Shown: positions 1-28,567 of the stretch, one piece after another
Layout of the letters: each line of letters begins with the position of its first letter
Position numbering within the stretch: position 1 is the first letter of the stretch
Source: Balanoglossus misakiensis
Lineage: Eukaryota > Animalia > Hemichordata
DNA length: 64,000 nucleotides
NCBI GenBank assembly: GCA_040954595.2
Contig: CM082588.2
Coordinates: forward strand, 9,594,844 to 9,658,843
Reading direction: 5' to 3'
Notes under the pieces: model-generated
Seen by the model: only the letters and a program-made list of their open reading frames with translations
Told to the model about the DNA's origin: nothing
The model's database searches: none
Program-made: the position numbers and the translations under genes

Positions 1-1372
1 AACACTTAAAATTTACATGTCCATACATTTATGAGACGCATGTGCTGAATGGTACTGTGTCCCGGAAGCTTGAATTGCCTGATTAATAATTAAAACATGC
101 AAATATACCACAGCCTCTTATGGCAATTCAGAAACTATCGCTCTAAAAGGACCATGGTTGCGACAATATTTGCCAAAAAGCTGTATAAACTGTAGCTCAT
201 GATAATTCCTGACTTTAACGCGATCTGGTAGAAAAGTGTTTGCTTGTTTGTTACTTGATTGTGGTGGAGTGTTATTTATTTGCTAGCGACTAAAAAAACA
301 TTCTGAGCTATAAATTAAGTGTGTTGAGTGGTTTCTGTCAAAGTCTATACCCGTAAAGCCAATATAACAAACAGTATTTAATCTTTTAGACTCATAGTAA
401 ATTGCTTCTGATATGTACCTGTACATATCAAGCTGAACAGACAGCATGTCAATAAACTTCAAACTAAACCATCAGAATATCAAAAACAACAATACCTAGG
501 GAATAGTCACAGAAACCTAATTAATGGAAGGTCAAACTTATGACTTTTATAGTGGTCTTGTGTGGACAGGGATGTCATTTACACTTCTTTACTTAGTACA
601 TGAGTGAGTGTGAACACGCTGATATTAATAACAATTCAATCGATGTTGGCTAATAGGAACAATAGTAAACGTTTAAGTTTTAATACAATAAGTATGAATT
701 AACTTGAGCGGTGCTGATAACAATTACACACTGGAGGCTGGTACACATGGAGTCTCACTGACTCCAACATGTAATCAGATACAGGTGAAGGCCATTCTCT
801 ATAAGAGCAATAAAATATCTGACAGTTTTATGACAGCTGGTCAATATTTGCCTTAAAATGTTTGCCAACGTGGTTCTTATATACTCCCTTTCTTATCAGT
901 ACGTGTGTGGTGGGTCATGTGTCAATTGCCCTTGCATAAAATCTCAAGAGATGCCACTTTTGCATTATTTTCATGATTTTATTTTACAACTTAAATTGGT
1001 CTATCTTAATATGTCATAATGTCATACAACAACAGCAAGGGACTCTTTTTGGAACTGTCTTTTCGACAAAATGAGCATTACTGTTTCTACAACACTTTAC
1101 AACTCAAATGATCTTGCCTTCATTGCTAATATTTTAGGAGATAGAATTTACATGGTTGACTACCAGGAGTCTGGTGAACAAGCAACTCTTCAAGAAAATG
1201 TGCTGGACCTTGTACAAATATGCCTTGCGAACTGAATTTAGTACCGTGAAATGCTTCTTGTCGGAAGCCATCTTATATAATTTAGTATAGTAGTACCTCT
1301 GCAATTTAATGTGTTGATGTAACTCTTCTCATTTCGAGGAGGAATAAAGGAACAACAACAACAACAAAAACA

Positions 1373-7776: not shown

Positions 7777-7797
7777 TCAGACAGTGTTTTATTCAGG

Positions 7798-7887
7798 ATG
7801 GTATCAGCAGGGGGTATATGTCCCCCTTCGCCAGAATATTTGAGGGTGATTCCACTCTGGCAAGGGGGAATGTTATATCTTCAACAT
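7798..7887 (+). CDS. Candidate first coding exon of the ROCO gene (MVSAGG...YLQH)
   Basis: ATG at 7798, 30 codons, then a phase-0 GTGAGT donor compatible with the exon at 8312. No protein motif supports it. Confidence 0.35.
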
Positions 7888-8311: not shown

Positions 8312-8410
8312 AATCTAATCAATGCCGCAGTGAAGGGTGATGTTGCAAAGATTCAGTCGCTGATAGCTGATGGATATGATGTCAATGCAAGGGGTAAATA
8401 CCCAGGACAG
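8312..8410 (+). CDS. ROCO exon: N-terminal ankyrin repeat (NLINAAVKGDVAKIQSLIADGYDVNARGKYPGQ)
   Basis: ttacag acceptor and gtaagt donor, 99 nt, phase 0-0, matches the ankyrin consensus. Confidence 0.8.
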
Positions 8411-11400
8411 GTAAGTGTTCGTATTGACCAATGTTTTATACAGAGTCATCGCTCAGGGCTAGCGTTTGATATTTAATTTTTCACATGCGGTGCATGCAGG
8501 AACTTAAAAAAATTGTGTGAAACTGTATTTCAATTACGTGCAACAAAATAACGATAAACAGCCTGGGTTTTTGGTAAGTAACAACTTTTAATAGAAATAT
8601 CTTTTTAAAATAACGAATTTTGTTGAAATAAAATGGATTCTTGGTGCAAACAAGATATTCCTAATGTCAATTCTTCCACAAAGATAAACTTACAGACACG
8701 GAGAGGTCTGCTGCAAGCAGTATTTTTAGGGGTCAACTATGGTGTTTCAAATTCTCTGTGGCAAGAACTAATTCTCAACTGGGGTGTTTTTCAAGGTCCA
8801 TCGCACTATTCTGTTTGCAAATACATCATTGCAGTTTGCCACGCCGCTTTCTATAGCACCCCTGATGCTGTTACTGTAGTAGCACTAGCTGAACCCCTGA
8901 AATGTTCCAGGACCACTTCAACTGTTCACATGTAATATTTTATGCCAGCATTTGAGCAGAGACGTTTCAGAAACATTTCAATGGTTATGAGTGACTGGCT
9001 TTTCACACAACAGTAACACTGAATCAACTAGATATCTATGAACTTCCAAAATACCACACACTCCCAAAATGATATCACAACACCACATTTAGATTGTGCA
9101 AAAACAGACCTACACTAGCCCACAAATATACTAACCATGATACCCTTGGGATCCAGCCATAGGAAGGACAGTGGGACACATTGCACTCTAAATTTAACAA
9201 TCTTTACAATTTAGCCAAAGATGTTGAACCATAGTGTATTTGACACATTTGTTCCGAATGAATAAATATGTTCCAGAAAGTAAATTTTGATGCATTTTTT
9301 TGTGTTTCACCAAAGTTAACAAATTTTTATTTTTTTTCAAGCCATCTCTGAAATTTTGCTGGCAATCTTTTTTTAAATCTTCCAGATCCCCTCCATCCTT
9401 AGTTAAGCTATGGAGTCTGAAACATCCAATGTTAAAAACTATATGACCAGTCAAAGCGTTTTCCTCGCTGTTAGAATCAATTGAGATTCTTCACCGTCAT
9501 TCTTTGATCTGTATTCATTTTAACAGTCGGCAATTTTCATTTTGTGTGTAGAAGGACTGTGCATTATCCTTTCAAATCAGTCAGTATGCCATTCTTGCTT
9601 GTTTTTTGCAATATGGCTGATACTTTTGATATTTGTTTATTTATTTGTAGGTTTGTTTGTTTGTTTGTTTAAAGAAACCTCATATTACATTTCAATTTTT
9701 GTGACATTGTTCCCATGCTTCTCCTTCATTACTTACAGGATGGAGTCACCCCTTTGAATGATGCAGCAGGGTTTGGTGGTGAAGGCTGTGTCAGATTGTT
9801 ATTGGAACACAAAGCTGATGTTACCATACAAACCCAGGTAAATACCAACTTGACTTCTGCAGGTTAATCTATCAGTATGGAATGATTTATTCATTCATTT
9901 TTTGTTTGTTTGTTTGTATGTTTTTTGTTTAAGGAAAATTACACATTACGTTTAATTTTTGTGACATTGTTCTCATGCTCCTCCTTCATTACTTACAGTG
10001 GGGAGACACCCCTTTGCACTCTGCAGCAAGGAGGGATGTTGGTGAAGGCCTTGTCAGATTGTTATCGGAACACAAAGCTGATGCTAACATACAAAACAAG
10101 GTAAATACCAACCTGACTTCAGCAGGTTTATTCTATCACTGCGGATATATTTATTCATTTATTTGTTTGTTTGTTTGTTTGTTTAAGGAAATTTCACATT
10201 AGATTTCAATTTTTGTGACATTATTCTCATGCTCCTCCTTCATTACTTACAGGATGGAGACACTCCTTCGCATGATGCAGCAAGGAGGGATGGTGGTGAA
10301 GGCCTTGTCAGATTGTTATCGGAACACAAAGCTGATGCTAACATACAAAACAAGGTAAATACCAACCTGACTTCAGCAGGTTTATTCTATCAATGCGGAT
10401 ATATTTATTCATTTATTTGTTTGTTTGTTTGTTTGTTTAAGGAAATTTCACATTAGATTTCAATTTTTGTGACATTATTCTCATGCTCCTCCTTCATTAC
10501 TTACAGGATGGAGACACTCCTTTGCATTATGCAGCAAGGAGGGTTGGCAAAGGCCTTGTCAGATTGTTATTGGAACACAAAGCTGATGCTAACATACAAA
10601 ACAAGGTAAATACCAACCTGACTGCTGCAGGTTTATTCTATCAGTGCGGATATATTTATTCATTTATTTGTTTGTTTGTTCGTTTACGGAAATTTCACAT
10701 TATATTTCAATTTTTGTGACATTATTCTCATGCTCCTCCTTCATTACTTGCAGGATGGAGACACTCCTTTGCATTATGCAGCAAGGAGGGTTGGCAAAGG
10801 CCTTGTCAGATTGTTATTGGAACACAAAGCTGATGCTAACATACAAAACAAGGTAAATACCAACCTGACTTCAGCAGGTTTATTCTATCAATGCGGATAT
10901 ATTTATTCATTTATTTGTTTGTTTGTTTGTTTGTTTAAGGAAATTTCACATTAGATTTCAACTTTTGTGACATTATTCTCATGCTCCTCCTTCATTACTT
11001 ACAGGATGGAGACACTCCTTCGCATGATGCAGCAAGGAGGGATGGTGGTGATGGCCTTGTCAGATTGTTATTGGAACACAAAGCTGATGCTAACATACAA
11101 AACAAGGTAAATACCAACCTGACTTCAGCAGGTTTATTCTATCAATGCGGATATATTTTTTCATTTATTTGTTTGTTTGTTTGTTTAAGGAAATTTCACA
11201 TTAGATTTCAATTTTTGTGACATTATTCTCATGCTCCTCCTTCATTACTTACAGGATGGAGACACTCCTTCGCATGATGCAGCAAGGAGGGATGGTGGTG
11301 AAGGCCTTGTCAGATTGTTATTGGAACACAAAGCTGATGCTAACATACAAAACAAGGTAAATACCAACCTGACTTCTGCAGGTTAATTCTGAAAGTATTG

Positions 11401-14400
11401 AAATATTTTTTTGTTTTTTTTTTTGTTTAAGGAAATTTCACATTATATTCAATTTTTGTGACATTATTCTCATGCTCCTCGTTTATTACTTACAGGATGG
11501 AGACACTCCTTTGCATTATGCAGCAAGGAGGGTTGGTGGTGAAGGCCTTGTCAGATTGTTATTGGAACACAAAGCTGATGTGACAATACAAAACAAGGTA
11601 AATACCAACCTGACTTCTGCAGGTTTATTCTATCAATGCGGATATATTTATTCATTTATTTGTTTGTTTGTTTGTTTATGGAAATTTCACATAATATTTC
11701 AATTTTTGTGACATTATTCTCATGCTCCTCCTTCATTACTTACAGGATGGAGACACTCCTTTGCATTATGCAGCAAGGAGGGTTGGTGGTGAAGGCCTTG
11801 TCAGATTGTTATTGGAACACAAAGCTGATGCTAACATACAAAACAAGGTAAATACCAACCTGACTTCAGCAGGTTTATTCTATCAATGCGGATATATTTA
11901 TTCATTTATTTGTTTGTTTGTTTGTTTAAGGAAATTTCACATTAGATTTCAATTTTTGTGACATTATTCTCATGCTCCTCCTTCATTACTTACAGGATGG
12001 AGACACTCCTTCGCATGATGCAGCAAGGAGGGATGGTGGTGAAGGCCTTGTCAGATTGTTATCGGAACACAAAGCTGATGCTAACATACAAAACAAGGTA
12101 AATACCAACCTGACTTCAGCAGGTTTATTCTATCAATGCGGATATATTTATTCATTTATTTGTTTGTTTGTTTGTTTGTTTAAGGAAATTTCACATTAGA
12201 TTTCAATTTTTGTGACATTATTCTCATGCTCCTCCTTCATTACTTACAGGATGGAGACACTCCTTTGCATTATGCAGCAAGGAGGGTTGGCAAAGGCCTT
12301 GTCAGATTGTTATTGGAACACAAAGCTGATGCTAACATACAAAACAAGGTAAATACCAACCTGACTGCTGCAGGTTTATTCTATCAGTGCGGATATATTT
12401 ATTCATTTATTTGTTTGTTTGTTCGTTTACGGAAATTTCACATTATATTTCAATTTTTGTGACATTATTCTCATGCTCCTCCTTCATTACTTACAGGATG
12501 GAGACACTCCTTTGCATTATGCAGCAAGGAGGGTTGGCAAAGGCCTTGTCAGATTGTTATTGGAACACAAAGCTGATGCTAACATACAAAACAAGGTAAA
12601 TACCAACCTGACTTCAGCAGGTTTATTCTATCAATGCGGATATATTTATTCATTTATTTGTTTGTTTGTTTGTTTAAGGAAATTTCACATTAGATTTCAA
12701 CTTTTGTGACATTATTCTCATGCTCCTCCTTCATTACTTACAGGATGGAGACACTCCTTCGCATGATGCAGCAAGGAGGGATGGTGGTGATGGCCTTGTC
12801 AGATTGTTATTGGAACACACAGCTGATGCTAACATACAAAACAAGGTAAATACCAACCTGACTTCAGCAGGTTTATTCTATCAATGCGGATATATTTATT
12901 CATTTATTTGTTTGTTTGTTTGTTTAAGGAAATTTCACATTAGATTTCAATTTTTTTGACATTATTCTCATGCTCCTCCTTCATTACTTACAGGATGGAG
13001 ACACTCCTTCGCATGATGCAGCAAGGAGGGATGGTGGTGAAGGCCTTGTCAGATTGTTATTGGAACACAAAGCTGATGCTAACATACAAAACAAGGTAAA
13101 TACCAACCTGACTTCTGCAGGTTAATTCTGAAAGTATTGAAATATTTTTTTGTTTTTTTTTTGTTTAAGGAAATTTCACATTATATTCAATTTTTGTGAC
13201 ATTATTCTCATGCTCCTCGTTTATTACTTACAGGATGGAGACACTCCTTTGCATTATGCAGCAAGGAGGGTTGGTGGTGAAGGCCTTGTCAGATTGTTAT
13301 TGGAACACAAAGCTGATGTGACAATACAAAACAAGGTAAATACCAACCTGACTTCTGCAGGTTTATTCTATCAATGCGGATATATTTATTCATTTATTTG
13401 TTTGTTTGTTTGTTGATGGAAATTTCACATAATATTTCAATTTTTGTGACATTATTCTCATGCTCCTCCTTCATTACTTACAGGATGGAGACACTCCTTT
13501 GCATTATGCAGCAAGGAGGGTTGGTGGTGAAGGCCTTGTCAGATTGTTATTGGAACACAAAGCTGATGCTAACATACAAAACAAGGTAAATACCAACCTG
13601 ACTTCAGCAGGTTTATTCTATCAATGCGGATATATTTATTCATTAATTTGTTTGTTTGTTTGTTTAAGGAAATTTCACATTAGATTTCAATTTTTGTGAC
13701 ATTATTCTCATGCTCCTCCTTCATTACTTACAGGATGGAGACACTCCTTCGCATGATGCAGCAAGGAGGGATGGTGGTGAAGGCCTTGTCAGATTGTTAT
13801 CGGAACACAAAGCTGATGCTAACATACAAAACAAGGTAAATACCAACCTGACTTCAGCAGGTTTATTCTATCAATGCGGATATATTTATTCATTTATTTG
13901 TTTGTTTGTTTGTTTGTTTAAGGAAATTTCACATTATATTTCAATTTTTGTGACATTATTCTCATGCTCCTCCTTCATTACTTACAGGATGGAGACACTC
14001 CTTTGCATTATGCAGCAAGGAGGGTTGGCAAAGGCCTTGTCAGATTGTTATTGGAACACAAAGCTGATGCTAACATACAAAACAAGGTAAATACCAACCT
14101 GACTTCAGCAGGTTTATTCTATCAATGCGGATATATTTATTCATTTATTTGTTTGTTTGTTTGTTTGTTTAAGGAAATTTCACATTAGATTTCAATTTTT
14201 GTGACATTATTCTCATGCTCCTCCTTCATTACTTACAGGATGGAGACACTCCTTTGCATTATGCAGCAAGGAGGGTTGGCAAAGGCCTTGTCAGATTGTT
14301 ATTGGAACACAAAGCTGATGCTAACATACAAAACAAGGTAAATACCAACCTGACTTCAGCAGGTTTATTCTATCAATGCGGATATATTTATTCATTTATT

Positions 14401-17400
14401 TGTTTGTTTGTTTGTTTAAGGAAATTTCACATTAGATTTCAACTTTTGTGACATTATTCTCATGCTCCTCCTTCATTACTTACAGGATGGAGACACTCCT
14501 TCGCATGATGCAGCAAGGAGGGATGGTGGTGAAGGCCTTGTCAGATTGTTATTGGAACACAAAGCTGATGCTAACATACAAAACAAGGTAAATACCAACC
14601 TGACTTCAGCAGGTTTATTCTATCAATGCGGATATATTTATTCATTTATTTGTTTGTTTGTTTGTTTAAGGAAATTTCACATTAGATTTCAATTTTTGTG
14701 ACATTATTCTCATGCTCCTCCTTCATTACTTACAGGATGGAGACACTCCTTCGCATGATGCAGCAAGGAGGGATGGTGGTGAAGGCCTTGTCAGATTGTT
14801 ATTGGAACACAAAGCTGATGCTAACATACAAAACAAGGTAAATACCAACCTGACTTCTGCAGGTTAATTCTGAAAGTATTGAAATATTTTTTTTTTTTTT
14901 TTTTTTTTTAAGGAAATTTCACATTATATTTCAATTTTTGTGACATTATTCTCATGCTCCTCGTTTATTACTTACAGGATGGAGACACTCCTTTGCATTA
15001 TGCAGCAAGGAGGGTTGGTGGTGAAGGCCTTGTCAGATTGTTATTGGAACACAAAGCTGATGTGACAATACAAAACAAGGTAAATACCAACCTGACTTCT
15101 GCAGGTTTATTCTATCAATGCGGATATATTTATTCATTTATTTGTTTGTTTGTTTGTTTATGGAAATTTCACATAATATTTCAATTTTTGTGACATTATT
15201 CTCATGCTCCTCCTTCATTACTTACAGGATGGAGACACTCCTTTGCATTATGCAGCAAGGAGGGTTGGTGGTGAATGCCTTGTCAGATTGTTATTGGAAC
15301 ACAAAGCTGATGCTAACATACAAAACAAGGTAAATACCAACCTGACTTCAGCAGGTTTATTCTATCACTGCGGATATATTTATTCATTTATTTGTTTGTT
15401 TGTTTGTTTGTTTAAGGAAATTTCACATTAGATTTCAATTTTTGTGACATTATTCTCATGCTCCTCCTTCATTACTTACAGGATGGAGACACTCCTTCGC
15501 ATGATGCAGCAAGGAGGGATGGTGGTGAAGGCCTTGTCAGATTGTTATCGGAACACAAAGCTGATGCTAACATACAAAACAAGGTAAATACCAACCTGAC
15601 TTCAGCAGGTTTATTCTATCAATGCGGATATATTTATTCATTTATTTGTTTGTTTGTTTGTTTGTTTAAGGAAATTTCACATTAGATTTCAATTTTTGTG
15701 ACATTATTCTCATGCTCCTCCTTCATTACTTACAGGATGGAGACACTCCTTCGCATGATGCAGCAAGGAGGGATGGTGGTGAAGGCCTTGTCAGATTGTT
15801 ATTGGAACACAAAGCTGATGCTAACATACAAAACAAGGTAAATACCAACCTGACTTCTGCAGGTTAATTCTGAAAGTATTGAAATATTTTTTTGTTTTTT
15901 TTTTTTGTTTAAGGAAATTTCACATTATATTTCAATTTTTGTGACATTATTATCATGCTCCTCCTTTATTACTTACAGGATGGAGACACTCCTTTGCATT
16001 ATGCAGCAAGGGATGGTGATGAAGGCCATGTCAGATTGTTATTGGAACACAAAGCTGATGTGACCATACAAAACAAGGTAAATACCAACCTGACTTCTGC
16101 AGGTTAATTCTGAAAGTATTGAAAGATTTTTTTGTTGTTTTTTTTGGTTTAAGGAAATTTCACATTACATTTCAATTTTGTGACATTATTCTCATGCTCC
16201 TCCTTCATTACTTACAGACAGGAGACACCCCTTTGCATGATGCAGCAAGGAGGGATGATGGTGAAGGCCTTGTCAGATTGTTATTGGAACACAAAGCTGA
16301 TGCTAACATACAAAACAAGGTAAATACCAACCTGACTTCTGCAGGTTTATTCTATCAATGCGGATATATTTATTCATTTATTTGTTTGTTTATTTGTTTG
16401 TTTGTTTGTTTGTTTGTATAAGAAAACACATTTCATTTCAATTTTTGTGACATTGTTCTCATGCTCTTCCTTCATGACTTACAGAAAGGAGACCCCTTTG
16501 CATTTTGCAGCATATGTCATATAATTTTGTCATTGTCCTTTGAATCAAAACTGCTCACTCTGTCGGGTCAGGTGTTATACAGGCAGGTGTGGAAACGATT
16601 TGCATTCCTTTCTTTCTTTCTTTGTTAATCAATCAATTGTTGTTCTATTCATTGATCATCACCCCCCTGTATCATGAACATCACAAGGCAATGCATTGAA
16701 TTCAGCTCTTCCAGCTAGTGGCCGCACTTGCTTGATTTCCTGCGTGTGTCTCTGGGGATGAAAAGAATGCATATGCGTCTTTTCCTAATTTGCATATTTT
16801 GAATGGGTGTTCCAACGTGAGTAACCGTTCATTTGACTTCCAGCTCGCATCGAATACACGTTAGGGACTGTTTTTACAGCTGGGGGGGGGCAAGTTTGGG
16901 TCATCGATTTTCAAAATCAGGCCAACCCCCCCTTCACCCTGGACCAAAAAATGATGACCCCCCCTTTGACAGACCCAAAATATGATGACCCCCCCCCCCC
17001 CCCCCCCCCCCGCTGAAAACATTCGCCGTGCTGATCCTATGTACACTGTATGCAATAAAGGGAATGAGGCTCCTCACACCTCAATTATAAATTTCTTAAA
17101 GTAATTGAAGTATATATAATAGTATATCGTTGCAATAAAAAATATATGAACAAAATAAAATGACAAGTCAATACAATAGAAAATTTAAGAAAATTTTGTA
17201 AAATACGGTGCTCAAAGTTGCATTCGAATGAACTCTAAAGCAAATTAACTCAATGTTAGGCAGGACAAATTTTAATTTTGCCACTCCACTCAAAGTAAAC
17301 ATCGGGGGTAGGGTGGGTAGAAGTCTGCCGTGGTACACTAGACAAACCAGCGAATAAATGATATGTGGCGAAGAATGGAGGGGGAGGGGTGTGCGAGGGG

Positions 17401-20400
17401 GTGTCCCCCTCCCACATAAGAAAATTTTGTAAAATATGTAGCTCAAAGTTGCATTTTTATGAACTCAAAAGCAAATTATCTCAGTGTTTGGGAGGACCTA
17501 AAATTTGACTTATAGGTGTGCGTGCCTCAATCATCTGATGCATGTATTCATCTATGAAAATTTGTGATCCATTTTCAGAACGTAGTGACTCCTTGTCAAG
17601 AGGCAGGAAGGAAGGCTGGGCGGGGTGCAGGCACCAATATTGCAAGAGCCTTTGTGGAATATCATTTTGACAATGAGAAAGTATATCAGGCAAGTATTGA
17701 GTTAGATTTAAAAGGGCAAGGTTACTCACTTTTGATAAAACAGTGAAATTGTGTCAGTTACCGACCACCTCTATATAGTGGCCACTTTGTTACAGTCCCT
17801 GTGCAGTTAACATGGGCAATTATTGACTTGTATATACAGGCCACCTGTCTATTAAGGCCAATTTAGGAAAGTCACTCTGACTGGCCAATTTGGACTGTGA
17901 GATTTGGCTGTATTTCAGTTATTTACCAATTGGCTCTTTCTGTTGTTCTAAAAGATGCTCATTGACCAGTTTTATAAAGCTTACCGGCAACTCACACCTG
18001 ACACATGGATATTTAAATCCATTTATTTGTTACCAAAATTATTTAATATATGTCCATAATATGCATGGTGTGGTATAATTGTCATAATCCTGTACTTTAC
18101 AGCTAGTTCATTTAAGCAATAAAACACCCCCAGCCATGGTATACCACTCGATTTTGACCAGTTCACGACATATACGCACTCGCTATCGCTCCTGCGTATA
18201 TGTCGTGAACTGGTCAAAATCGAGTGCGTATATGTCGTGAACTGGTCAAAATCGAGTGGTATACCATGGCTGGGGGTGTTTTATTGCTATTATATTATGC
18301 CAGTATATTGAAACTTTGCATAAAACATTTTAAAAAGGCATTTTCTTTGACTATGCTATATGACTGTGGTATATGGCTAATATATCACAGTCACGTGTCG
18401 TGTCTCGACCAATAAAATAGCGTGATTTACACCATCAATATACTGGTATAATATAATCAATCATATATGTTCTGTTTTCATCAATGAAAATACAGGCAGT
18501 TATAAACTCAGTGTATGACAGAGATGACAAAAGAGACCTGATCAACCATCATAAGGTACGTCGTAATGTTGATAATAAATGGCTATGAAAACATATCATA
18601 TCACTAGTGTATTTGAATTTATCTTCTATATTTATAACATGGAAAACATAAAACCAGACTGTCATATAAATTTTTAACTACATACTTATTCTATTGTGCC
18701 AGCTAGGAAGGCATTAAAGGGACATTACCTATAACTTTTGGCTTTATTTCCAGATTTTTTTCCTTTTATGTACAAAATGCAATTTCATATTCTTCTCCAA
18801 ACTGCATGCTAATATGCCCAGTACTCAACTTGTGTATATTGCCTGTCTCTGTAACAACCATTGTTATTGTTGACTCATGAATTCTAGTCCGGACTTCAAT
18901 TCAAATTTTGCAAAATAACAATGTTGAATATACACAAAGAGTACACAACTATCGAGGTGTGCGTCACAAAGAGATGACAAACTTATGCAAATAGAAGTTA
19001 TGGAAAAAATATGTTAAATTTGGCAGCTCATGAGGCTTTAACTATGCATTATTTCTATAGCGTTAATGATAGCTTCCACATCATAAGCACATCATAATAG
19101 TGTAGTTAACAATGTAAATTATATTTTTTGATACTAGCGTTTTTATCAATATCTTTTCTGAAGCAAAATGTCATGTGACTTCTTTGAAGACATGGTGTTT
19201 AATTGAAAGGCATGTAAATTGAGTGTAAAAATTCCCAATATATATAACACATAACATATCTGTTCAAATTCTGACAGGTGTTTTCCCGCCAAAAAGAATT
19301 CACAGCACTCATGTGACAACCTGGTGTCAAACGTAATACTACAAAGATTGTGTTAGCTGGATACGGTGGGAATGGCAAAACTACACTCAAAGAATCATTG
19401 CAGCGGGTGTGTAGAAATCTTTGATTATGAATGCCAATTATTGCTGTTTTTGAGGAGTGAAGGATTTGTGCAAATATTAAAGTTTTCATGAAGACTACAT
19501 TTCAGTGGAAATCAGGGTACATATTTTGTTGACCAACCAATTCTCCAAATATTTTATATTATTACAATATGATTGGCATTAATCAAGCTTGCTGATTGGC
19601 CCGAGTCGCGGTTTATATCCTCAACGAGAAGACCTGAACCCTGAACAGTGAATAACTAAAAATAACCGAAATGGGACACATAGAACAGAACGCCTCGCCT
19701 CGCTCAGTGATTATTTCCCGCCAAATATGCTAAGTTTCACCTGGGAGGTCTTATATCCGGAATCAAATACTCTCGCTTGCCGTTTATAAGTTTACAACCT
19801 CTAAATTGTGAGAAAATCATCACTTATGTTCATATATTACAATGCAGAACTTTGTGCAAGCAAAATTGACTCGACGGTCAGAAGAGAAAGCACCTTTACC
19901 AGGGAACATGCAGTACACACCAACACCCGCCATAGATGTAGCCACATTATCCATACCCAAGATTGGCAAGTTCAGTGTGTGGGACTTTGCAGGACAAACA
20001 GAATACTATGTCACACATAATATGTTCCTAAGAGTCGAGAATGCAGTGGTTTTATTGGTCTTCAAAATGGCTGAGGACAAGCAGGATGTAGTTTGGACAC
20101 CAAGAAAACTTATGCAACAGCAGAGACAAGAGGTGGGTCGTTGTTTTTTTGTTACTGATGATAAGTGATATTAATATTTTGGGCAATTATGGAATAAAGG
20201 TAAAGATGAAACTCAGAAAGGGCACAGTGCATATATTACAATATTTTTTTTATTACTAAGCAGTGCATCAGTGAATTAGGTGGTGCAATATTGTGAATGA
20301 AATTAAAGTAAAGATGAATGGCACAGTATATATATTTGTGAAACATTTATCTCTTTTTGTTTTTATCCAGATTTAGGGACTGATTGAATATAATATGATT

Positions 20401-23400
20401 GATGACTTTATATTCTTCTTCATGTCTTTCTTTAATAGGTGACATCATGGCTTGCATTCCTTAAGGCAATCATACCACAAGATATGGATGAGGGTGGGAG
20501 TAAACCAAAAGTGATATTGATTGGAAGCAAGGCTGATTTGTTGAAAGCTGAACACAAGAAAGAAGGTATGTTCAGTACATGTTTAGATAAAAGGTGACAA
20601 GAGCGAGGGTATTCACACAATTGGGAGCCTGGTGTGGGAGTACACTCAATCTGATTAAAACCAGATGTAGTGTTGGGCGCTGTCTTTACCTTTGCTGATT
20701 CTTGGCTGTTCTGTTCGAAAGGGACACCCATACTACATCTGAACCTTTGCAAAAGGAGATCTCATTACTATTCAACATTTTACCTATTCAGATAGTGTGA
20801 TTGATGTAGAATTTCACCGGATGCTTTCAAAAAATACAAAACAGCACCAAAGTGGCCTCTTCTGTGTATATGTCCATACTTTGTAAATAAAAATCTATCA
20901 AGAGATCATTACTTTTTTCTTGATAGCTGAATTGGTGATGAGGGAAATACTCCAGACAGCTCAGAAGACCTTTGGCAAATACCTGAATATTCTTGATGAG
21001 ACATTCATACTGAATTGTCACAACTCGCAGCATAATGATATGCACAGATTGCGTGAATGTCTACGAAGTGCAAAGGTATGGTTTTATAGATATTCTGCAA
21101 TGTGTGACTGGATTGAACATGTTAATTCATTAGGGCGATATTTGACAAAGGCATGCTTTACATCACCTTAATACTCTCATGTAATGCATAGAGTCCAAGA
21201 AAGCCAACTATCAGATAGTAATAACTGAACTCTTATCAGTGGGAAATAAGTCAAGGTTGTATACTTTTGACTTACCGGGTATCAGAACTGTCTAAAAGGG
21301 CGTTCTCACTGGCACGTTTACACTGGTGCTACATCGGTGTAGATTTGACACCGACGGAAAAAAACAAGTGAGAACGCTTTACACCGGTGTTGGGCCGGTG
21401 TTAATTTGCGACAGCGATGGGTGGTGGGTCAGGGCCAGTGCTGGGCCAGCGCTCCGACGCAAATAATCAGTGAGAACGCAAAGATAAACAAACACCATTC
21501 AAAAGCGCCACCCTGCAGTGACTTTTGGGTATGTTTATTAGGTATAGCCCATTGTCTTTGGTCAGTTTCCATTGTTAAGTCAATCACACTGGATGCGAGT
21601 GGTTTTCAAACCATTCGCAGTTTGCCAGGTCTGCAACACTTCAGTCTGCTACCAACTTTCAGAAGGTTCTCTCGATCACCAAAAAGCCGAGGCATTTTCC
21701 ATTTATGGATTAACATTCATTTACTTCTAAACATTATCAAAACTGTCACAAAGTCGTCTAGAACGTATATGCAGGTATATAAACTGCAACATGTTGCTGT
21801 AATGTCCTCGACATCCTCAATTTTGTTAGTTGCCGTGTTGCTAAACATGGCCATTTAGACAGTGTTTATTTCAAAACAGTGGCCAAAAGTTTAGTGTGTG
21901 GACGCAAGGAGATTCTGTGGGCTAATCCCCTGTGTTTGCAGAGAGTAAACACTGGCATAACACCGGTGTCCAAACTTTTAGTGAGAACAAGACTTTAAAT
22001 AATGGGCTGTGTCTGTAAAGGGTGAATATCACTGTTGCCAGTATTGTTCGAGTTGCTTTTCTGAATGTTCATTTCACCAAACAACAGTATTATGGGGGTC
22101 ATCGTTAAACCCCGGTGCGGGGTATAAAAGACCCCCCAAATCAGTGGCGAATCTTAATGCCGTTTGACTGACAACAGACAACACCAACGATCTTGGCTCT
22201 ATGAAAATCGGCCCAAACAGGTCCAAGCATAAAGAATTACACCACACAACGACAGTAGTTGGCTTTATAAACACACACAACATAAAGTTATCGACGAAAA
22301 AGTACACGAGCTTATGAAACAACGATGATTTTGGGAGACATCTGGTTTCAGTGCTTTTCAGAAGCGTCCCTGGGAAACAATAACTACGCCATTCAAACAG
22401 TTGTCAATCGCGTGGAAGTGTGAAGTGTTCAATTATTTTCTGTGTACATGAGAGCAATTACACAGTCATTATGCACGACGACCACTCCCAAATAAACAAC
22501 TATACAAACACACGTTAATCCGAACCCCAGGACTTTCCGCACCGGGGTTTAAGACGTTTTTGAAACATCTCAGATGAAATACTGGCGTAAATTATCATGT
22601 GTGAATGGTTTAAGTGGTCCTGAAACGTCTCAGATTTGAGACGGCTTTGGTCAGACCTGAGCCAGTGTAAGGATTAACACCTCTCCGCAACCCATTGTTT
22701 GTGTGTGTGTACACAAGGCGACTTAAAGGATTAATGCTCTGTGTTTACTATTGGCAAATAGTGTCTATGAAATGTTTTGAATTTTACCCTGTCTGGACAT
22801 GAACCTGGTATATGTCGCTGTGTTAATGTTACAGAGAGAAGAATACATACCAAAGTTGTGTGCTAAGATACTTGATGGAAGAAGCAAATGGATTGTGAGC
22901 AGTTTCCCGGTCATCAAATGGAAAACATATATAGAAAGAGTGAAAGAGTTGGATCGTTTCATTGATGAAGAGTTTCTAAAGAAAGCTACGAGATACCTTC
23001 ACTACCTTGGGGAGGTAAGTTTATTACAGAAATCGTTGCTGAAGACATTACCCCACTTGATCAGTAGGTTAAGAAATCCATGGAGGATACTGTAAAACAG
23101 GTTATTTCGCGAGCAATAAATTTTCATGAAATATGCGAGAGCCCCCAAAAATGTCAAAATACAAAAGTCGCATAAAATGTTTTTTTTCTTAGATAACAAT
23201 GCAGTTAGTGAAATACGAGAAAGCCAAAATTAATCCATGCATAACAGTTGCTTCTTTTGATATCGCGAAAATTTCCTGTCGCGAAAAGAACCTGTTTTAC
23301 AGTATGAAGTCATACTACAAGAAAATGTTCTCGCAAAGTTTGGAGAAAGTACAGTACTGCAATTATGTTTATCACAGAACAATTACTGATGAAACCTTTC

Positions 23401-26400
23401 CAAAGACCAACAGGAGTTCTGAAAGTTTTCTAGAAATTCTTTAAAACCTATCAATGCCAGGGTTCATCAAAAATAGAGGGCATCATTGACTTAAACATAT
23501 AAACCATGGGATGTGAAAAGCAAGTACTAATACAGAAACCAAAAATAACGCTGGAAAATTTGTTGACAGGGGGTGTGCTTGTGTCAACCGTTAAGTGCAC
23601 TCTTTGTTTGATCATGATTAGTGTCATACAAATTTAACCCTTAATAATAATAATAATAATACTTTATTTCAGACTTTAAAAAAAGTCCATATACCCAAAA
23701 GAGAGAAGAAAAAAAAACACTAATGAAAATACTCTGGAAAATCTGAAACTGAGACACACACACACAAAAAAAAAACTCTGCAAAATTACATGATATACAA
23801 TTGCTTTCGCCAATGTTTGAAAAATATGCTGTCAGTCGCTCTATCTGATGAACAGATCGCATCAAGTAAAACATTAGAAGAATTTTCGAGTCTACACTTA
23901 AAACTGTACATATTGCGTCTAAAAACTTCACCAAGTGACAATACATGGTTTGTAGCAAACATACCCGATGCACTGCAAAATGGCGGAAGACCGAGAAGTC
24001 TTCTCCAAACATTATTGTACATAGTTTTAAATTTTTTCATCGGTTTAACTTTAAAGGATGCCCACAAACTGCAACAGTAAATATTACTACAATATGCCAA
24101 AAATAAAACTTTCTTCACATCTTGACTACAATGTTGAAAATGTCTCAATAGCATGTTTGCTCTAACGCAAAATGCTCTTCTCTGTCGTTCAATATCTTCA
24201 TTATCACAACCATCACAAGATATTACATGGCCCAGATAGGTGTGTTCAGGTACAAACTTCAAAGTGATGTCATTAAGTTTAACCGAAGGAATTCTTTGAA
24301 CGCTCATATTCTTCCCATTAAAAAGCATGCACACAGTTTTACTAGAATTATAAATGATATCATAATCCTTGCCATAAATTTCACAAATTCTAAGAAGACG
24401 GCGTAGACCCTTAACACTTGGACTGAGTAGAGTCATGTCGTCAGCGTAACCCGAAGTGTTAGCGCTGACACCACACATGGTACAGCCAACTTTGGCTTTA
24501 CAGAGTGCATTGATAAGATCATCAATGTAGACATTAAAAAGATAGGGAGAGAGTACTCCCCCTTGTCTTACACCGTTAGAAACAGAAAACAACTCTGAGG
24601 TTTCATTACCCCACAACACAGTAAACAATTGATTTCTGTACCAGTAATATAAAATTCGAACAGCATACAAGGGAACATTCCTGTCGATGAGCTTGTTAAC
24701 CAGTTTAAAGTGATTAACTCTGTCAAAAGCTTTTGAAGCATCCAGAAAACAAGTAAACACTGGTCCTCCATTGCTGGTGTAGTAGCTAATGATTTCTTTA
24801 AATGCAAATAAACACAGGTCAGTTGAATGTTCTCGCTTGAAACCAAATTGTAAATAATGAGAGGTAAGAAACTCCTCACAACGAGAAAGTAAAATATGCT
24901 CAAAAACTTAAGAGAAAACAGTTGCTAGTGCTATCGGCCGGTAGTTACTGGCATCACTACAAAGCTTAGTTTTATCCTTAATAATTGGAACTAAAATAAC
25001 TTTGATAGCCTCAGTTGGCAGGTAACCATGAACAATCATAGCATTAATACAACAAGTCAAAATGGGTAAAATAGAGGAGTCTGAGAATTTGAGGTGCTCA
25101 GCTGAAATATTGTCAATGCCAGCTGTCTTGTCGTCAGGTAACTTATGTATAGCAGAAATTACTTTGTCTTCAGAAACATACATATCAGAAGAAAAGTTAA
25201 CATACTTCATTTTCTCCTCGATGTCATTTTTACCAGTCTGAGCCTGGACAGAATTCAAAATATCACTGAAATGCTTGTGCCACATAATTGCAATTTCACT
25301 CTCACCAGTCGCTCCACCTACAGTGTCAGAAAGTGGCGTTTTTCTGCTAGTTTGCTTTCTGACTTCCTTCCAGAAGTCGTTCTGTTTGTGGCAGCATAAA
25401 TTGTCAGCCATCTTGTCAGCCCTATTTTGATTCTCAATCTTTTTACAAGCACGTAAAGCATACTTAAAACGAGCTCTGAAAGATTTCATGGTTTCAAAAA
25501 GCGGGCCTTGTTTAGGTTTACCCCCATTAACCCATAATAAAAACATGGAACGGGCATAGTCGTGACTTTCTTTTACAAAATCGTTCCAGCCAGGTACAAC
25601 ATGAACTTTCTGGTGAAACTTACGCCTAATGGTATATTTTGCAGCACAATTCAATGCGTCCACAATACTACTATAACAAGTATCAATTGCCTGTAAATGC
25701 GAAGGGTCTGTACAGTTCACATTAGTGCAGAATAACTCTTCGGATAAATTAATCTTATCAATCTTGGCTTTGGTACAAGGGTGTAGGCGGATATATTCTG
25801 CTGTGACAATTTTTTCCAATCAACTCGAAAATTACATTGCTTGAAGGAACTACTGCTGAAGCTTTCATCAGCAGAAGTGTTGAAATGAACCTCTATTGAA
25901 ACAGGAATATGGTCGGAGTCAACAACATTGCAAAGGCTCGAAATTGAAAGAACATTGCTATGAGAAACTTCAGTGGTAACACAGTGGTCAATCCATGAAG
26001 TACTGCCATGAGCATCGCTAATCTAAGTAAACGTACCAGAATCCCTGCCTAGCAGCTCAACATCAGAAACGATGTAACCAAATTGCTCACAATGCTCCAT
26101 CAACTCACGACCAAAGCCTGTATCAGTAGTTACATCAGCATTCCAGTCACCAATAAAAAAGACATTCCCAGTGTTAATATCAGAAACAATGGAATTGATT
26201 TTCGCCAAGTACTCACTGAACACTTCAAAATTATCATTAGTATTGGTGGGCAAATAACAGTTTACAATAACAAGTTTGTCAGTATCATTTTTTAAAACTA
26301 AACCAAGCAAGCGACTATCAGCAAACTCAACAATACTGGCAAGTTTGCCAAGCGATCTACGCCAAAGAATTGCAACCCCCCCCCCGTACGGTCTACCAAT

Positions 26401-28567
26401 ACGGAGTTCAGACGAATCAAAAGCAGATACTCCGAATGACATAAAATCCAGATGTATGTCATGTAAAATTGACAGCTCTTCCTTAGCAAGCCAGTGTTCT
26501 TGTAAAAGACAAATATCATGGGTTTCACACAATTCATACACAGAATGAAAGCTTGATTTCACAGAGCGACAGTTAAATGACACAATCCGTAAACTATTTT
26601 TGCGTTTTGTCATGGCGTCTGAGATTTATAGTATTTTCTTACAAGAGTATCCTGAGGCCAATTTACAGGATCAAGGGCAACTCTAATGTCTACATCAGAT
26701 AATTCAACCATAAAAGAAGCATACATATCATACTTTGTTTTCAGTTTTGTACAGTTCACACCTACATCAAATTTGTCCGCAGCATAGCGCTCAACATTTT
26801 CACATGTTGTTGCTGGATTCAGCCGGGACACGAAAAGTGTACATACACGCCGCGGTCTTGCGCCTTGAAGGCCAGCTGTAGTACTCAGCGCAGTTCCAAT
26901 CACAGGCTGGGTTCTCTTAAGAGGGATCTGGGGGTGAAAGGCTTGACAGAGCCTTTTGCTGAGGATCTAGACAGGGATTCAAGACTGAGAAAAAAACCCA
27001 GAAAAGGCCCTCTGGTATAAACATGTTTTTGTGGTCCATGTGTGTCACTAGTGTGGGTATAGCCCTGACATTGTTCCTAAATCACCAGTGGCAATATTGT
27101 GGCGTTGATGAGTTTTTTTTCGATCACTATAGCCGAGATGGTTTGGCCAGGCAAGGCTAGACTTGGCCTGGGTTTCGCGGTTTCCCTATGTATGATCAGC
27201 CATGCACACATCTACATACTGGTATGTGTGTCACTAAGATATATGCACAATTTCATTTGAATAAATGTCTCAAAACATAAGTATCTTTCCCCATTGTTTA
27301 TTCACAGATGTTCCAAATCGAGAGTACCCTACCAGATTCAGATGACGTCATTGTTCTTGATCCCCAATGGTTATGTTCTAGAATATTCGGTCCCATGCTG
27401 GCTCCTGAAATATTTGAGCAGTTTGCAAACCGCTTGCCACGGAAGTCCTTACATATGAGAAGCGAAATTGAGGAAGTTTTCCATGGTCTGGCAGATATTG
27501 ATTTGCTGATAAATCTTCTCAAAGAGTTTGCCCTTCTCTACGAGGTCATTTCTGAATCCAATACTGTAACTGGGTATGTAATACCTGGGTTGTTGGACGC
27601 AGATATGCCTGCAAATCAGTGGAAACAGGATGCTACTAAGAAGATTTACTATGGTAGACGGTTCCAATGCAGAGATGATGCTGATAGTTTCTCGCCAGGA
27701 TTTTCCCCCCGACTTAACGCCCGAATAGAACGCCATTTCCGAAAGATCAACCGACGGACAAGTGGTATATGGAAAAATGGCATCAAAGTGTGTCACAATG
27801 CAGAAGGCTTGGTGTATATGACAAAAGGTTGGAGAGCTATCCATGTTTGTGTTAGAGCAGAGAAAGAAGAGGAAATCGGCGAATGCTACAAATTATTAGA
27901 GACAATAACTGATATTGTCTATGAAGTGTTAGAGATCTGCTGTCCTGGTACAAGACTTGACATCCACGTGTTGAGTTCAGATTCTCTTCGAATCCATCGC
28001 AACCCTGAAGATGTCACATTCTATACATTGAAGCAAATTCGGGAAGCAGAAGAGAGGAATGAGAAGGTGTACAACGAGGAGATGGTGATTTCAGAAGCGG
28101 CTACTGACTTTCTTTGTGCTGGGTATGATACAACCATCCTCTGACACAGTGGATATGAAAGTGATGTCAAGTGGATGCTGAAGGATGCCCTCAAGATATT
28201 TTCTAATATCATGGATATCATCCGTTTACCCGGCAATGACTACAGGGCTATGGCAGACTTGATGGGGATCCCTCGCATGGAGGTGGATTCATGGCAATAC
28301 AGTGCATTGATTCAATCCCCAACACAACATGCTTTATCTGTTTGGTCCAAGGGCTGTGGAGGACAACAACGTGCAGGCCAACAGCCAACTGCAGATAAGA
28401 AATTCTGTAAGAGCAATTTTTCCAACCTGGTTAAAATTTTTGAGCAAGAAAGTTGTGATGTCTACGCTGCCAGAGAAGAAATACATGAGATGTTCCGAAA
28501 ACTTGGTGTGTCAGCTGATCATCATGATGTTGAAGGTGACATGGCTAATCTACATCTTACATCTTAA
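8312..28567 (+). CDS. Multi-exon ROCO gene: ankyrin repeats-Roc GTPase-COR-death domain (DAPK1-like C-terminal architecture, no kinase seen); two in-frame TGA codons, possibly a pseudogene
   Basis: Frame-compatible exons: 8312-8410, 27 ankyrin exons in 9739-16319, 17579-17689, 18496-18555, 19278-19406, 19848-20132, 20439-20565, 20927-21075, 22835-23014 and 27308-28567. Motifs: P-loop GYGGNGKTT, WDFAGQ, GSKAD, COR IVLDPQWLC, death-like DYRAMADLMG...SPTQHALSVW. About 1740 aa if all exons (including the candidate first exon) are joined and the stops are read through. Confidence 0.85.
9739..16500 (+). repeat. Tandem array of 27 complete ~250-bp exon+intron units plus one degenerate unit, each exon encoding one ankyrin repeat
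   Basis: Unit: ...cattacttacag|GATGGAGACACTCCT...CAAAACAAG|gtaaatacc...; 8 exons of 99 nt and 19 of 102 nt, all phase 0-0. Peptide DGDTP[L/S]H[Y/D]AARR[V/D]G(G)[E/K/D]GLVRLL[L/S]EHKAD[AN/VT]IQNK. Confidence 0.97.
17579..18555 (+). CDS. Two ROCO linker exons (17579-17689 with a GC donor; 18496-18555)
   Basis: ttttcag|AACGTAGTGACTCCT...TATCAG|gcaagt and tacag|GCAGTT...CATAAG|gtacgt; both open and phase 0-0. Confidence 0.65.
18115..18288. mobile_element. Palindromic MITE with a ~30-bp duplication in one arm
   Basis: GCAATAAAACACCCCCAGCCATGGTATACCACTCG... mirrored by ...CGAGTGGTATACCATGGCTGGGGGTGTTTTATTGC. Confidence 0.8.
19278..21075 (+). CDS. Roc GTPase domain exons (19278-19406, 19848-20132, 20439-20565, 20927-21075)
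   Basis: G1 KIVLAGYGGNGKTTL, switch I YTPTPAIDV, G3 VWDFAGQTEYYVTH, G4 VILIGSKAD. In-frame TGA at 19314-19316. Confidence 0.9.
21298..21993 (+). mobile_element. ~700-bp non-autonomous DNA transposon (possibly Harbinger-like); second copy inverted at 41911-42606
   Basis: Termini GGGCGTTCTCACT...AGTGAGAACAAGAC. A highly similar reverse-complement copy lies at 41911-42606. Confidence 0.8.
22835..23014 (+). CDS. ROCO exon: start of the COR domain (REEYIPKLC...ATRYLHYLGE)
   Basis: ttacag acceptor, gtaagt donor, 180 nt; YLHxLGE COR motif. Confidence 0.85.
23090..23302. mobile_element. Tc1/mariner-type MITE with TA TSD
   Basis: TA|CTGTAAAACAGGTT...AACCTGTTTTACAG|TA. Confidence 0.8.
23641..26915 (-). 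mobile_element. 5'-truncated non-LTR retrotransposon (APE+RT LINE, RTEX- or CR1-group-like), antisense in the last ROCO intron
   Basis: ORF1 C-terminus at 26610-26903 (LFVSRL...YASF...WP). ORF2 endonuclease motifs SFNCRS, LQEHWL, GDWNA, SDHIP. RT motifs FLDASKAFDRVNH, GVRQGGVLSP, YADD. 3' AATAAA followed by a (TAT)n tail. Confidence 0.93.
23786..26613 (-). pseudogene. LINE ORF2 (endonuclease/reverse transcriptase), disrupted
   Basis: Split into pieces at 26023-26613, 24908-25819 and 23786-24760 by a nonsense codon and frameshifts. Confidence 0.9.
27308..28567 (+). CDS. Terminal ROCO exon: COR domain plus death-domain-like C-terminus; in-frame TGA at 28142-28144
   Basis: ttcacag acceptor. 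ORFs 27308-28144 and 28175-28567 are in the same frame (TTIL*HSGYESDVKWMLKD). Confidence 0.88.

What the first reader, a model, noticed from the sequence alone, without database searches (positions are those of the whole stretch)
9739..16319. Cassette array of 27 symmetric one-repeat ankyrin exons: a candidate diversifying sensor module
Seen: each ankyrin repeat is its own 99- or 102-nt phase 0-0 exon, and the ~150-nt introns are about as similar to each other as the exons. Any exon can therefore be skipped, deleted, duplicated or swapped without breaking the frame. Known: brown-algal (Ectocarpus) ROCO genes have one-LRR-per-exon arrays subject to exon shuffling, and fungal NLRs such as het-e change specificity by reshuffling highly similar repeats. 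Inference: an animal ankyrin-based analogue whose binding surface varies by unequal crossover, gene conversion or combinatorial exon skipping. I am not aware of this being described for animal ANK-ROCO genes, but could not check the literature.
Basis: partly seen in the sequence, partly recalled or inferred. Interest (0 to 1): 0.85.

Follow-up and report, generated by a model that had tools for sequence, protein, structure and literature searches.

The report
Broken ankyrin-cassette ROCO gene, runaway array
This animal gene, likely from an acorn worm, carries 27 near-identical exon-like units that each spell one ankyrin repeat in front of a GTPase and a predicted death domain, but two stop codons interrupt it and its 23 inner repeats do not differ at the predicted binding positions that vary most in relatives, so it is likely a recently disabled member of a family of likely variable immune sensors whose array was lengthened by block duplication.

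Summary
In detail: 27 AG..GT units of 99/102 nt, phase 0-0, exons 94% and introns 93% alike. They front an ANK-ROC-COR-death-domain gene of a kinase-less 'DAPK1-like' family of acorn worms, amphioxus and echinoderms. The array is mainly a 7-unit block copied three times, with copies 0.35-0.9% apart. Its 23 inner units are invariant at the five positions that vary most in relatives, and 11 carry a Leu-to-Ser change where 154 of 155 relatives' repeats are aliphatic; pN/pS is 1.3, not significant. Only the four edge units keep the family's binding-face variation. Verdict: a real cassette system, seen here in a likely recently disabled copy. The scan reported the same system earlier at five other loci of this genome and in feather stars. 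Expression and function are untested.

The parts
8312..8410 (+). N-cap ankyrin-like exon, 99 nt, phase 0-0 (first coding exon with the ATG not found)
   Evidence: tblastn 44-58% to N-termini of P0002, P0005, P0007; no Pfam hit; start-exon scans gave no convincing candidate
9739..10100 (+). Edge units 1-2: diverged cassettes that differ at family-variable positions
10253..15837 (+). Core units 3-25: a 7-unit block (about 1.74 kb) three times plus 2 units; 8 peptide types; Leu6Ser in 11 units
15979..16319 (+). Edge units 26-27: diverged cassettes
16485..16512 (+). Broken 28th unit: intact acceptor, 2-nt deletion, similarity ends after about 28 nt, no array donor
   Evidence: (nhmmer E 0.021)
17579..17689 (+). 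C-cap/linker exon, 111 nt, phase 0-0, GC donor
18496..18555 (+). Linker exon, 60 nt, phase 0-0
19278..19406 (+). P-loop exon of ROC (GYGGNGKTT), 129 nt, phase 0-0, weak donor; holds stop 1
   Evidence: P. flava isoforms XP_070581709.1 and XP_070581720.1 differ by exactly the homologous 43 aa
19314..19316 (+). In-frame TGA (stop 1), 90 nt before the next junction, 5 junctions downstream
   Evidence: present in the X2 contig spanning it, no T-to-other row in either run
19848..21075 (+). Three ROC exons: 19848-20132 (switch II, WDFAGQ), 20439-20565, 20927-21075
   Evidence: Pfam Roc E 6e-08, 33.4 bits over cut-off 27; P. flava isoform pair differs by the 92 aa of the last two exons
22835..23014 (+). 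COR-A exon, 180 nt
23786..26625 (-). Broken LINE-type retroelement (endonuclease + reverse transcriptase) inside an intron of the gene
   Evidence: RVT_1 E 3.5e-26; Exo_endo_phos E 5.4e-10
27308..28567 (+). Last exon: COR (to 28141), stop 2, predicted death domain (28145-28564), natural TAA
   Evidence: (COR-B E 1e-4, COR-A E 0.02, both under cut-off)
28142..28144 (+). In-frame TGA (stop 2) at a column that is Arg in 13 of 16 homologs with a residue
   Evidence: one X1 contig (394 nt, 2 differences) reads C at 28142, X2 contigs read T

Best explanation
This is a likely recently disabled copy of a kinase-less ankyrin-ROC-COR-death-domain gene, likely of an acorn worm, whose short array of one-repeat cassettes was likely lengthened by unequal crossing-over between near-identical introns, with no detectable selection on the predicted binding face. 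Shown: the cassette anatomy, the 7-unit block triplication, the two stops, and the contrast between edge and core units. Inferred: (1) the intact family works as an intracellular sensor, in which ankyrin cassettes bind a ligand, ROC-COR acts as a dimerising GTPase switch and the death domain recruits an adaptor; (2) the ancestral array here was a handful of cassettes varying at the binding face, of which units 1, 2, 26 and 27 remain; (3) one cassette lineage spread to 7 units and the block was then triplicated on about the time scale of allelic variation; (4) stop 1 makes a full-exon transcript a target of nonsense-mediated decay and removes the GTPase and death domain, and stop 2 arose later on one haplotype. 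The array then shows the family's mutational engine running, but not a diversified repertoire.
For: Stops. Stop 1 is in the X2 contig that spans it, and all T-to-other differences counted in both runs are accounted for elsewhere. Stop 2 sits at a conserved Arg and reads CGA in one X1 contig. Block copying: mean unit distance 3.8 at lag 7 and 5.5 at lag 14 against 12.0-16.3 at the other 13 lags, matched by 0 of 20000 shuffles; blocks differ by 0.35, 0.92 and 0.81%, while 8 X1 contigs differ from the window by 0.33%. No selection signal: pN/pS 1.27 (p 0.30) for all units and 1.26 (p 0.65) for the core; derived alleles per site 0.33 in exons and 0.32 in introns. Mismatch at family-variable positions 1, 3, 11, 12, 33 is 0.00 in the core against 0.64 in relatives; the edge units give 0.63 against 0.20 elsewhere, rho 0.65. 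Position 6 is L/I/V in 154 of 155 homolog repeats but Ser in 11 of 27 units. Broken 28th unit. At least half of Ectocarpus ROCO loci are disrupted (PMC3341825, passage), and repeats in fungal NWD pseudogenes stay nearly intact (PMC13449251, passage).
Against: The stop-1 exon is phase 0-0 with a weak donor, and the homologous exon is skipped in an annotated P. flava isoform, so a stop-free transcript lacking the P-loop is possible. X1 contigs break at 19283 and 19315, directly after the T of stop 1, which a variant there would also cause; the piece between is not listed. Runs X1-X3 are one sample and may be the source of the window, so the population state of stop 1 is unknown. ROC motifs are intact, and decay at invariant columns (10 of 101) is higher than in most P. 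flava paralogs (0-5%, two at 11-13%) but no higher than in the Glandiceps and Saccoglossus homologs (10% and 20%), which is inconclusive. No unit of the 27 has a stop, though this has little power (chance 0.54 for the core, 0.20 for all). The pN/pS tests rest on 13 and 34 events and cannot exclude selection. The Leu6Ser units descend from one mutation, and no fold was computed for them. The sensor role of the family is inference only.
Confidence: 0.6

Rival explanations
1. The locus is active through a bypass. The 129-nt exon with stop 1 is skipped, giving ANK27-ROC(no P-loop)-COR, with the death domain on the CGA haplotype, or an ankyrin-only product is made. Either would act as a GTPase-dead decoy or dampener of intact paralogs.
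For: The exon is phase 0-0 with donor CGG|GTGTGT. A P. flava gene has annotated isoforms with and without exactly this exon. Downstream motifs are intact, and all 27 units are open.
Against: Stop 2 removes the death domain on the window haplotype. Core units carry Ser at conserved positions 6 and 22. The P. flava isoform is an automatic model.
Confidence: 0.15
2. The gene is a working variable sensor in the species and the window holds a null allele. Other haplotypes lack both stops and carry different unit numbers and orders under balancing selection, as in fungal NLRs with high internal repeat conservation.
For: Stop 2 is polymorphic within one sample. Block divergence is close to the contig-to-window difference, so length polymorphism is expected. 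Podospora NLRs are pseudogenised in some strains and intact in others (PMC13449251, passage). The X1 contig break beside stop 1.
Against: No contig with another base at 19314 was listed in either run. The core has no binding-face variation and neutral-like pN/pS.
Confidence: 0.14
3. The copy number is inflated by assembly: a shorter real array (for example 7-13 units) was expanded.
For: Blocks 1 and 2 differ at only 6 of 1738 sites. No read or contig spanning the array was seen.
Against: The three blocks differ by substitutions and by whole converted units (units 18 and 20). Summed X1 contig depth on the last exon is about 49,000-53,000 against about 640-1,440 on unique pieces; this is no copy number, since overlapping contigs and paralogs add to it, but it fits many copies.
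Confidence: 0.06
4. The dead copy serves as a cassette reservoir, donating units to intact paralogs by ectopic gene conversion.
For: Intergenic repeat exchange and intact repeats in pseudogenes are reported for fungal NWD genes (PMC13449251, passage). Earlier scan notes describe several paralogs in this genome (unchecked).
Against: No shared unit with a paralog was shown; a sequence look-up of earlier findings with the COR exon found none. The core units are poor in diversity.
Confidence: 0.05

Closest known systems
Invertebrate-deuterostome 'DAPK1-like' ANK-ROC-COR-DD proteins in RefSeq (Ptychodera flava XP_070550397.1, XP_070581709.1, XP_070546714.1; Glandiceps talaboti XP_077996865.1; Saccoglossus kowalevskii; Branchiostoma XP_019636860.1, XP_078594975.1)
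   Same: Same domain order, 41-61% identity over the COR exon for the 17 hemichordate hits, same exon limits where isoform pairs show them, and internally homogenised ankyrin arrays.
   Different: 27 repeats at 88% mean peptide identity against 4-18 repeats at 31-86% in the 16 relatives with 4 or more repeats; two in-frame stops; core units invariant at the family's variable positions. The relatives are automatic annotations and their exon structure could not be read here.
Brown-algal LRR-ROC-COR genes (Zambounis et al. 2012, PMC3341825; Teng et al. 2024, PMC11378527)
   Same: ROCO gene with one repeat per symmetric exon, variable repeat content, inactivated repeat exons and many pseudogenes.
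   Different: Those use 72-nt phase-2 LRR exons with positively selected concave-face sites and documented splice variants, and have stray inverted exons in introns. Here the units are ankyrin, phase 0, followed by a death domain, homogenised together with their introns, copied in 7-unit blocks, with no inverted exon in the window and no selection signal in the core.
Fungal NLRs with high internal repeat conservation (het-e, het-d, NWD; ANK types Pa_2_8180, Pa_7_10370; PMC13449251)
   Same: Near-identical repeats that are gained, lost and shuffled, hypothesised to be by unequal crossing-over; sensor-NTPase-cell-death layout; frequent null alleles.
   Different: STAND NTPase (NACHT/NB-ARC) with C-terminal repeats instead of ROC-COR with N-terminal repeats; function shown genetically there, none here.
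Vertebrate DAPK1
   Same: ANK-ROC-COR-death domain order (established knowledge, recalled).
   Different: None of the 17 closest homologs lists a kinase family; DAPK1 has an N-terminal kinase and a fixed set of about 8 divergent repeats (recalled).

Membership tests
ROCO GTPases | ROC domain with P-loop and switch II | tested here: met
   Pfam Roc 33.4 bits over cut-off 27; GYGGNGKTT and WDFAGQ present, but they lie after stop 1
ROCO GTPases | COR domain directly after ROC | tested here: met
   COR-B E 1.1e-4 and COR-A E 0.02, under the Pfam cut-offs; 41-61% identity to 17 proteins, all listing COR-A or COR-B
ROCO GTPases | Open reading frame joining the repeats to ROC-COR (intact gene) | tested here: not met
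   In-frame TGA at 19314 and 28142 in the exon model
Invertebrate ANK-ROC-COR-DD family | C-terminal death domain | tested here: met
   AF2 model, pLDDT 78, pTM 0.73, six helices; VIA-align Z 11.5, rmsd 2.2 over 96 residues to MyD88 DD, top 22 rows all death domains, unrelated rows Z 2.7 or less. Foldseek had no match at E 0.001 or better and Pfam Death was E 0.069, under cut-off
DAPK1 orthologs | N-terminal Ca/calmodulin kinase domain | tested here: inconclusive
   No kinase family listed for the 17 homologs; the 8.3 kb upstream was not scanned with a kinase profile and the first exon was not found
Brown-algal-type exon-shuffling ROCO receptors | One repeat per symmetric exon | tested here: met
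   (by splice signals)
Brown-algal-type exon-shuffling ROCO receptors | LRR repeats, 72-nt phase-2 exons | tested here: not met
   ankyrin, 99/102 nt, phase 0
Brown-algal-type exon-shuffling ROCO receptors | Diversifying selection on the binding face | tested here: not met
   Core: mismatch 0.00 at positions 1, 3, 11, 12, 33 and pN/pS 1.26, p 0.65. The four edge units and the relatives do show the positional pattern. Power is low
Brown-algal-type exon-shuffling ROCO receptors | Alternative splicing of repeat exons | not testable with these tools
   No RNA could be laid on this locus; an amphioxus relative has an annotated isoform lacking exactly 3 repeats
Fungal HIC-type NLRs (het-e/NWD) | High internal repeat conservation with concerted evolution | tested here: met
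   94% identity incl. introns, 7-unit period, 14 of 465 site pairs four-gamete incompatible
Fungal HIC-type NLRs (het-e/NWD) | STAND NTPase (NACHT/NB-ARC) | tested here: not met
   The NTPase is Roc
Fungal HIC-type NLRs (het-e/NWD) | Repeat number/order polymorphic among individuals | not testable with these tools
   One sample, contigs only

The most novel reading that the evidence does not exclude
Invertebrate deuterostomes (acorn worms, amphioxus, echinoderms) have an undescribed family of intracellular ROCO-death-domain immune sensors whose ankyrin binding surface is rebuilt from one-repeat cassettes, by unequal crossing-over in homogenised introns and by in-frame exon skipping. This locus is a snapshot of that engine: a variable array overwritten from within by a 7-unit sweep, now a null allele, a GTPase-dead decoy or a cassette reservoir.
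Probability: 0.4. Interest if true: 0.8.

Novelty: new variant of a known kind. Interest (0 to 1): 0.5.

Why it matters
A repeat-cassette ROCO sensor has been described in brown algae (LRR), and reshuffled near-identical repeats in fungal NLRs. Ten full-text searches found no description of an ankyrin version in animals. If the family reading holds, the closest invertebrate relatives of vertebrates have a germline route to variable intracellular recognition coupled to death-domain signalling. This locus matters in a narrower way. It separates mechanism from function: the same array holds older cassettes with the family's binding-face variation and a young, uniform, likely neutral expansion. 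It is a natural control for paralogs where selection is claimed, and a warning that a long homogenised cassette array is not in itself a sign of a repertoire.

Tried and rejected
No whole genome is held for this window, so paralog DNA and their introns could not be compared. Sequencing runs: no RNA holder listed; three DNA runs of one sample, contigs only. First coding exon: two ATG-to-donor scans of 1-8300 gave no candidate like the homolog N-termini. Extra ankyrin exons outside the array or on the minus strand: none beyond the broken unit 28 and a weak match to the C-cap exon. Stop read-through: both stops are TGA-CA, but the residues after stop 1 match the homologs' [EQ]PG, stop 2 lies on a conserved Arg, and one contig has CGA there, so CpG decay is the simpler reading. 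Enrichment of changes at DARPin-randomised positions (positions recalled, not from a call): p 0.17 for all units, none in the core, p 0.05 for the edge set; at positions with homolog entropy over 3 bits p 0.34, 0.20, 0.63. An excess in codons 1-18 (21.5 against 6.0, p 0.002) holds for all units but not the core (p 0.39); that split was chosen after seeing the data. The decay test on ROC-COR-DD was inconclusive. Foldseek alone gave no significant hit for the death domain. The spliced array was not folded, so the effect of Leu6Ser is inferred. Earlier findings near this place, by COR sequence, or with 'premature stop pseudogene' gave nothing. Street et al. 2006 and Paladin et al. 2020, which bear on how common one-repeat ankyrin exons are, are not held.
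Full report
1. Observation. The array is real. Between 9739 and 16319 lie 27 units bounded by AG and GT, 8 of 99 nt and 19 of 102 nt, each open in frame and spelling one ankyrin repeat that starts at consensus position 1. The four units tested pass the Pfam Ank cut-off. The 26 introns are 138-161 nt, all GT..AG. There are 12 distinct peptides, 8 of them in units 3-25. A 28th unit at 16485 has an acceptor, a 2-nt deletion and no continuation.

2. The gene. Homology gives a 36-exon model on the + strand: an N-cap exon (8312-8410), the 27 units, a C-cap exon with a GC donor (17579-17689), a linker exon, four ROC exons, a COR-A exon and a last exon with COR and a death domain. The first coding exon was not found. 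The Roc exon passes the Pfam cut-off; COR-A, COR-B and Death hit under their cut-offs. The 140 residues after stop 2 fold into six helices (pLDDT 78, pTM 0.73). Foldseek gave no match at E 0.001 or better; VIA-align gave Z 11.5 (rmsd 2.2, 96 residues) to the MyD88 death domain, with death domains in the top 22 rows and unrelated folds at Z 2.7 or less. The COR exon finds 17 longer proteins at E 1e-10 or better among 1696 candidates: 15 from Ptychodera flava, one each from Glandiceps and Saccoglossus, 41-61% identical, none listing a kinase family. A library-wide search found 260 proteins at E 0.001 or better; the 10 that I looked up are from acorn worms, amphioxus, a sea star and a brittle star. 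The window is therefore likely from an acorn worm (inference). Two P. flava isoform pairs differ by exactly 43 and 92 residues, matching my exon 19278-19406 and my exons 20439-20565 plus 20927-21075, which supports the exon limits.

3. The gene is interrupted. The model has in-frame TGA codons at 19314 (before the P-loop) and 28142 (before the death domain). Stop 2 aligns with Arg in 13 of 16 homologs that have a residue there; stop 1 aligns with a variable position, Arg in 1 of 10 and in one more isoform. In contigs of one public sample, which may be the window's own source, one X1 contig of 394 nt with 2 differences reads C at 28142 while X2 contigs read T (40 of 400 rows shown), so stop 2 is likely on one haplotype only. 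For stop 1, the X2 contig across it has three differences, all elsewhere, and every T-to-other change counted in both runs at 20% share or more matches a row at another place (40 of 47 rows shown). Against this, X1 contigs end at 19283 and restart at 19315, directly after the T of the stop; the unlisted piece between has an implied depth of about 1437 from both neighbouring bins. One shared piece fits this, but a variant is not fully excluded. Stop 1 lies 90 nt before a junction with five junctions downstream, a standard trigger of nonsense-mediated decay (established knowledge). Its exon is frame-symmetric and is skipped in an annotated P. flava isoform, so a bypass without the P-loop remains possible.

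4. How the array grew. Unit distance averages 3.8 differences at lag 7 and 5.5 at lag 14, against 12.0-16.3 at the other 13 lags; 0 of 20000 shuffles reached the lag-7 value (units 2-25). Units 3-9, 10-16 and 17-23 are three copies of one block, differing by 6, 16 and 14 substitutions in about 1738 sites (0.35-0.92%); most of the larger figures come from one replaced unit. Eight listed X1 contigs differ from the window at 13 of 3903 sites (0.33%). The triplication is thus about as young as allelic variation (inference). Fourteen of 465 informative site pairs fail the four-gamete test, all involving three intron sites: a few mosaic units or recurrent changes, not free shuffling of single exons. 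Block-wise growth of repeat arrays is known, for example seven domains at a time in nebulin and often four for ankyrins (PMC1553488, passages), and concerted evolution of metazoan domain repeats is rare and enriched in host-pathogen functions (PMC5100051, passages).

5. Is it diversifying? Not in the core. Counting each derived allele once, pN/pS is 1.27 for all units (27.5 N, 6.5 S; p 0.30) and 1.26 for units 3-25 (10.5 N, 2.5 S; p 0.65); exon and intron sites carry 0.33 and 0.32 derived alleles per site. As a baseline I used the 168 proteins held, dropped three isoforms and all gapped or under-18-bit repeats, and kept 155 repeats in 34 proteins; 16 proteins have 4 or more repeats, and 9 of these have mean internal identity of 55% or more, a threshold of my choosing (the profile was built from 31 of the hemichordate and amphioxus repeats, and P0008 has mis-modelled stretches). 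In those 9, variation within a protein peaks at positions 1, 3, 11, 12 and 33 (0.64 against 0.24 elsewhere), the hairpin tip and first helix that form the ankyrin binding face (established knowledge, recalled). The 23 core units have mismatch 0.00 at these positions (rho -0.03 with the family profile); the four edge units have 0.63 against 0.20 (rho 0.65) (four sequences only). The commonest core change is Leu6Ser in the TPLH motif, in 11 of 27 units, where 154 of 155 homolog repeats have L, I or V; it is one mutation amplified. The array therefore has two layers: old edge cassettes with the family's pattern, and a young uniform expansion.

6. The family. Of 49 repeats in five hemichordate proteins, 43 have their nearest neighbour in their own protein, as do 12 of 12 window types, so arrays were homogenised independently. 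Amphioxus isoform XP_078594978.1 lacks exactly 99 residues, three whole repeats in the same register as the window's exons, relative to XP_078594975.1. This is an automatic model from a hybrid animal, so it may reflect exon skipping, an allele with fewer units, or mis-mapping; the other four isoform or cluster pairs and the four did not differ by whole repeats alone. Earlier unchecked notes of this scan describe the same architecture with hypervariable binding-face codons at five other loci of this genome and in feather stars; I did not test those loci.

7. Mechanism. Shown: anatomy, block triplication, stops, edge-core contrast, homogenised arrays in relatives. Inferred: intact members are intracellular sensors (ankyrin ligand binding, ROC-COR switch, death-domain adaptor); homogenised introns give long perfect matches that promote unequal crossing-over and conversion, and phase-0 symmetry keeps every product in frame; at this locus one lineage swept the array around the time the gene was disabled. 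Confidence 0.6. Rivals: a bypass or decoy isoform (0.15), a null allele of a working gene (0.14), assembly inflation (0.06), a cassette reservoir (0.05). On inflation: summed X1 depth on the last exon is about 49,000-53,000 against about 640-1,440 on unique pieces, which is no copy number but fits many copies, and the blocks are not identical.

8. Relation to what is known. It works like brown-algal LRR-ROCO genes (PMC3341825, passages; PMC11378527, abstract, section 11 and part 1 of section 13) and fungal NLRs with high internal repeat conservation (PMC13449251, passages), but belongs to neither: the repeats are ankyrin in phase 0, the NTPase is ROC-COR, and a death domain follows. Both model families are rich in pseudogenes, so a disabled member is expected. 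That ankyrin repeats often sit one to an exon in ordinary animal genes is recalled (Street et al. 2006: only the reference entry seen); the unusual features are intron homogenisation and copy number. Ten full-text searches found no description of an animal ankyrin-cassette ROCO family; PMC8195603, PMC4104024 and PMC9334734 (passages) mention animal ROCO or death-fold expansions but not this. Subscription journals are not covered and no supplements were read; genome-paper supplements on hemichordate or amphioxus immune genes could list the family.

9. Verdict. Observation confirmed, interpretation partly supported. New variant of a known kind. Interest 0.5: the family is of real interest, but this copy is likely disabled and shows the expansion mechanism without a diversified repertoire.

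Noticed in passing
window, each array intron, bases +13 to +30 from the donor: All 26 introns hold an inner GCAG|GT at +22..27 behind a branch-point-like CTGAC or TTGAC; in 15 of 26 it reads AG-CAG-GT, the form of a 3-nt microexon. It lies too close to the upstream donor for a normal intron; use is untested.
   Followed up: partly
window 53205-61430: An element of about 8.2 kb with inverted ends and 52-bp subterminal tandem repeats carries an integrase-core ORF on + (54074-55021, rva_4 E 2e-25) and a HECT-domain ORF on - (57199-59208, E 4.5e-06): likely a DNA transposon with an E3-ligase passenger.
   Followed up: partly
window 21297-21994 and 41910-42607: Two copies of a 698-nt element, 96% alike, in opposite orientation; one lies in an intron of the gene.
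   Followed up: no
window 28816-28852: A 37-nt copy (92%) of a piece of the COR exon (28068-28104) lies 250 nt past the natural stop.
   Followed up: no
window 18115-18288: A palindromic, MITE-like insert (86% self-complementary) in the intron after the C-cap exon.
   Followed up: no
window 37957-39309 and 46787-49628 (minus strand): Broken ORFs with DUF7869 and SAP domains, likely remnants of large transposons; the 30-64 kb part of the window looks mostly mobile DNA.
   Followed up: partly
P0171 (Asterias rubens XP_033641725.1) against P0037: A sea-star relative has an isoform with a C-terminal extension holding caspase-like SHG and QACRG motifs, and an isoform without it (motif names recalled): a ROCO fused to a likely caspase effector.
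   Followed up: no
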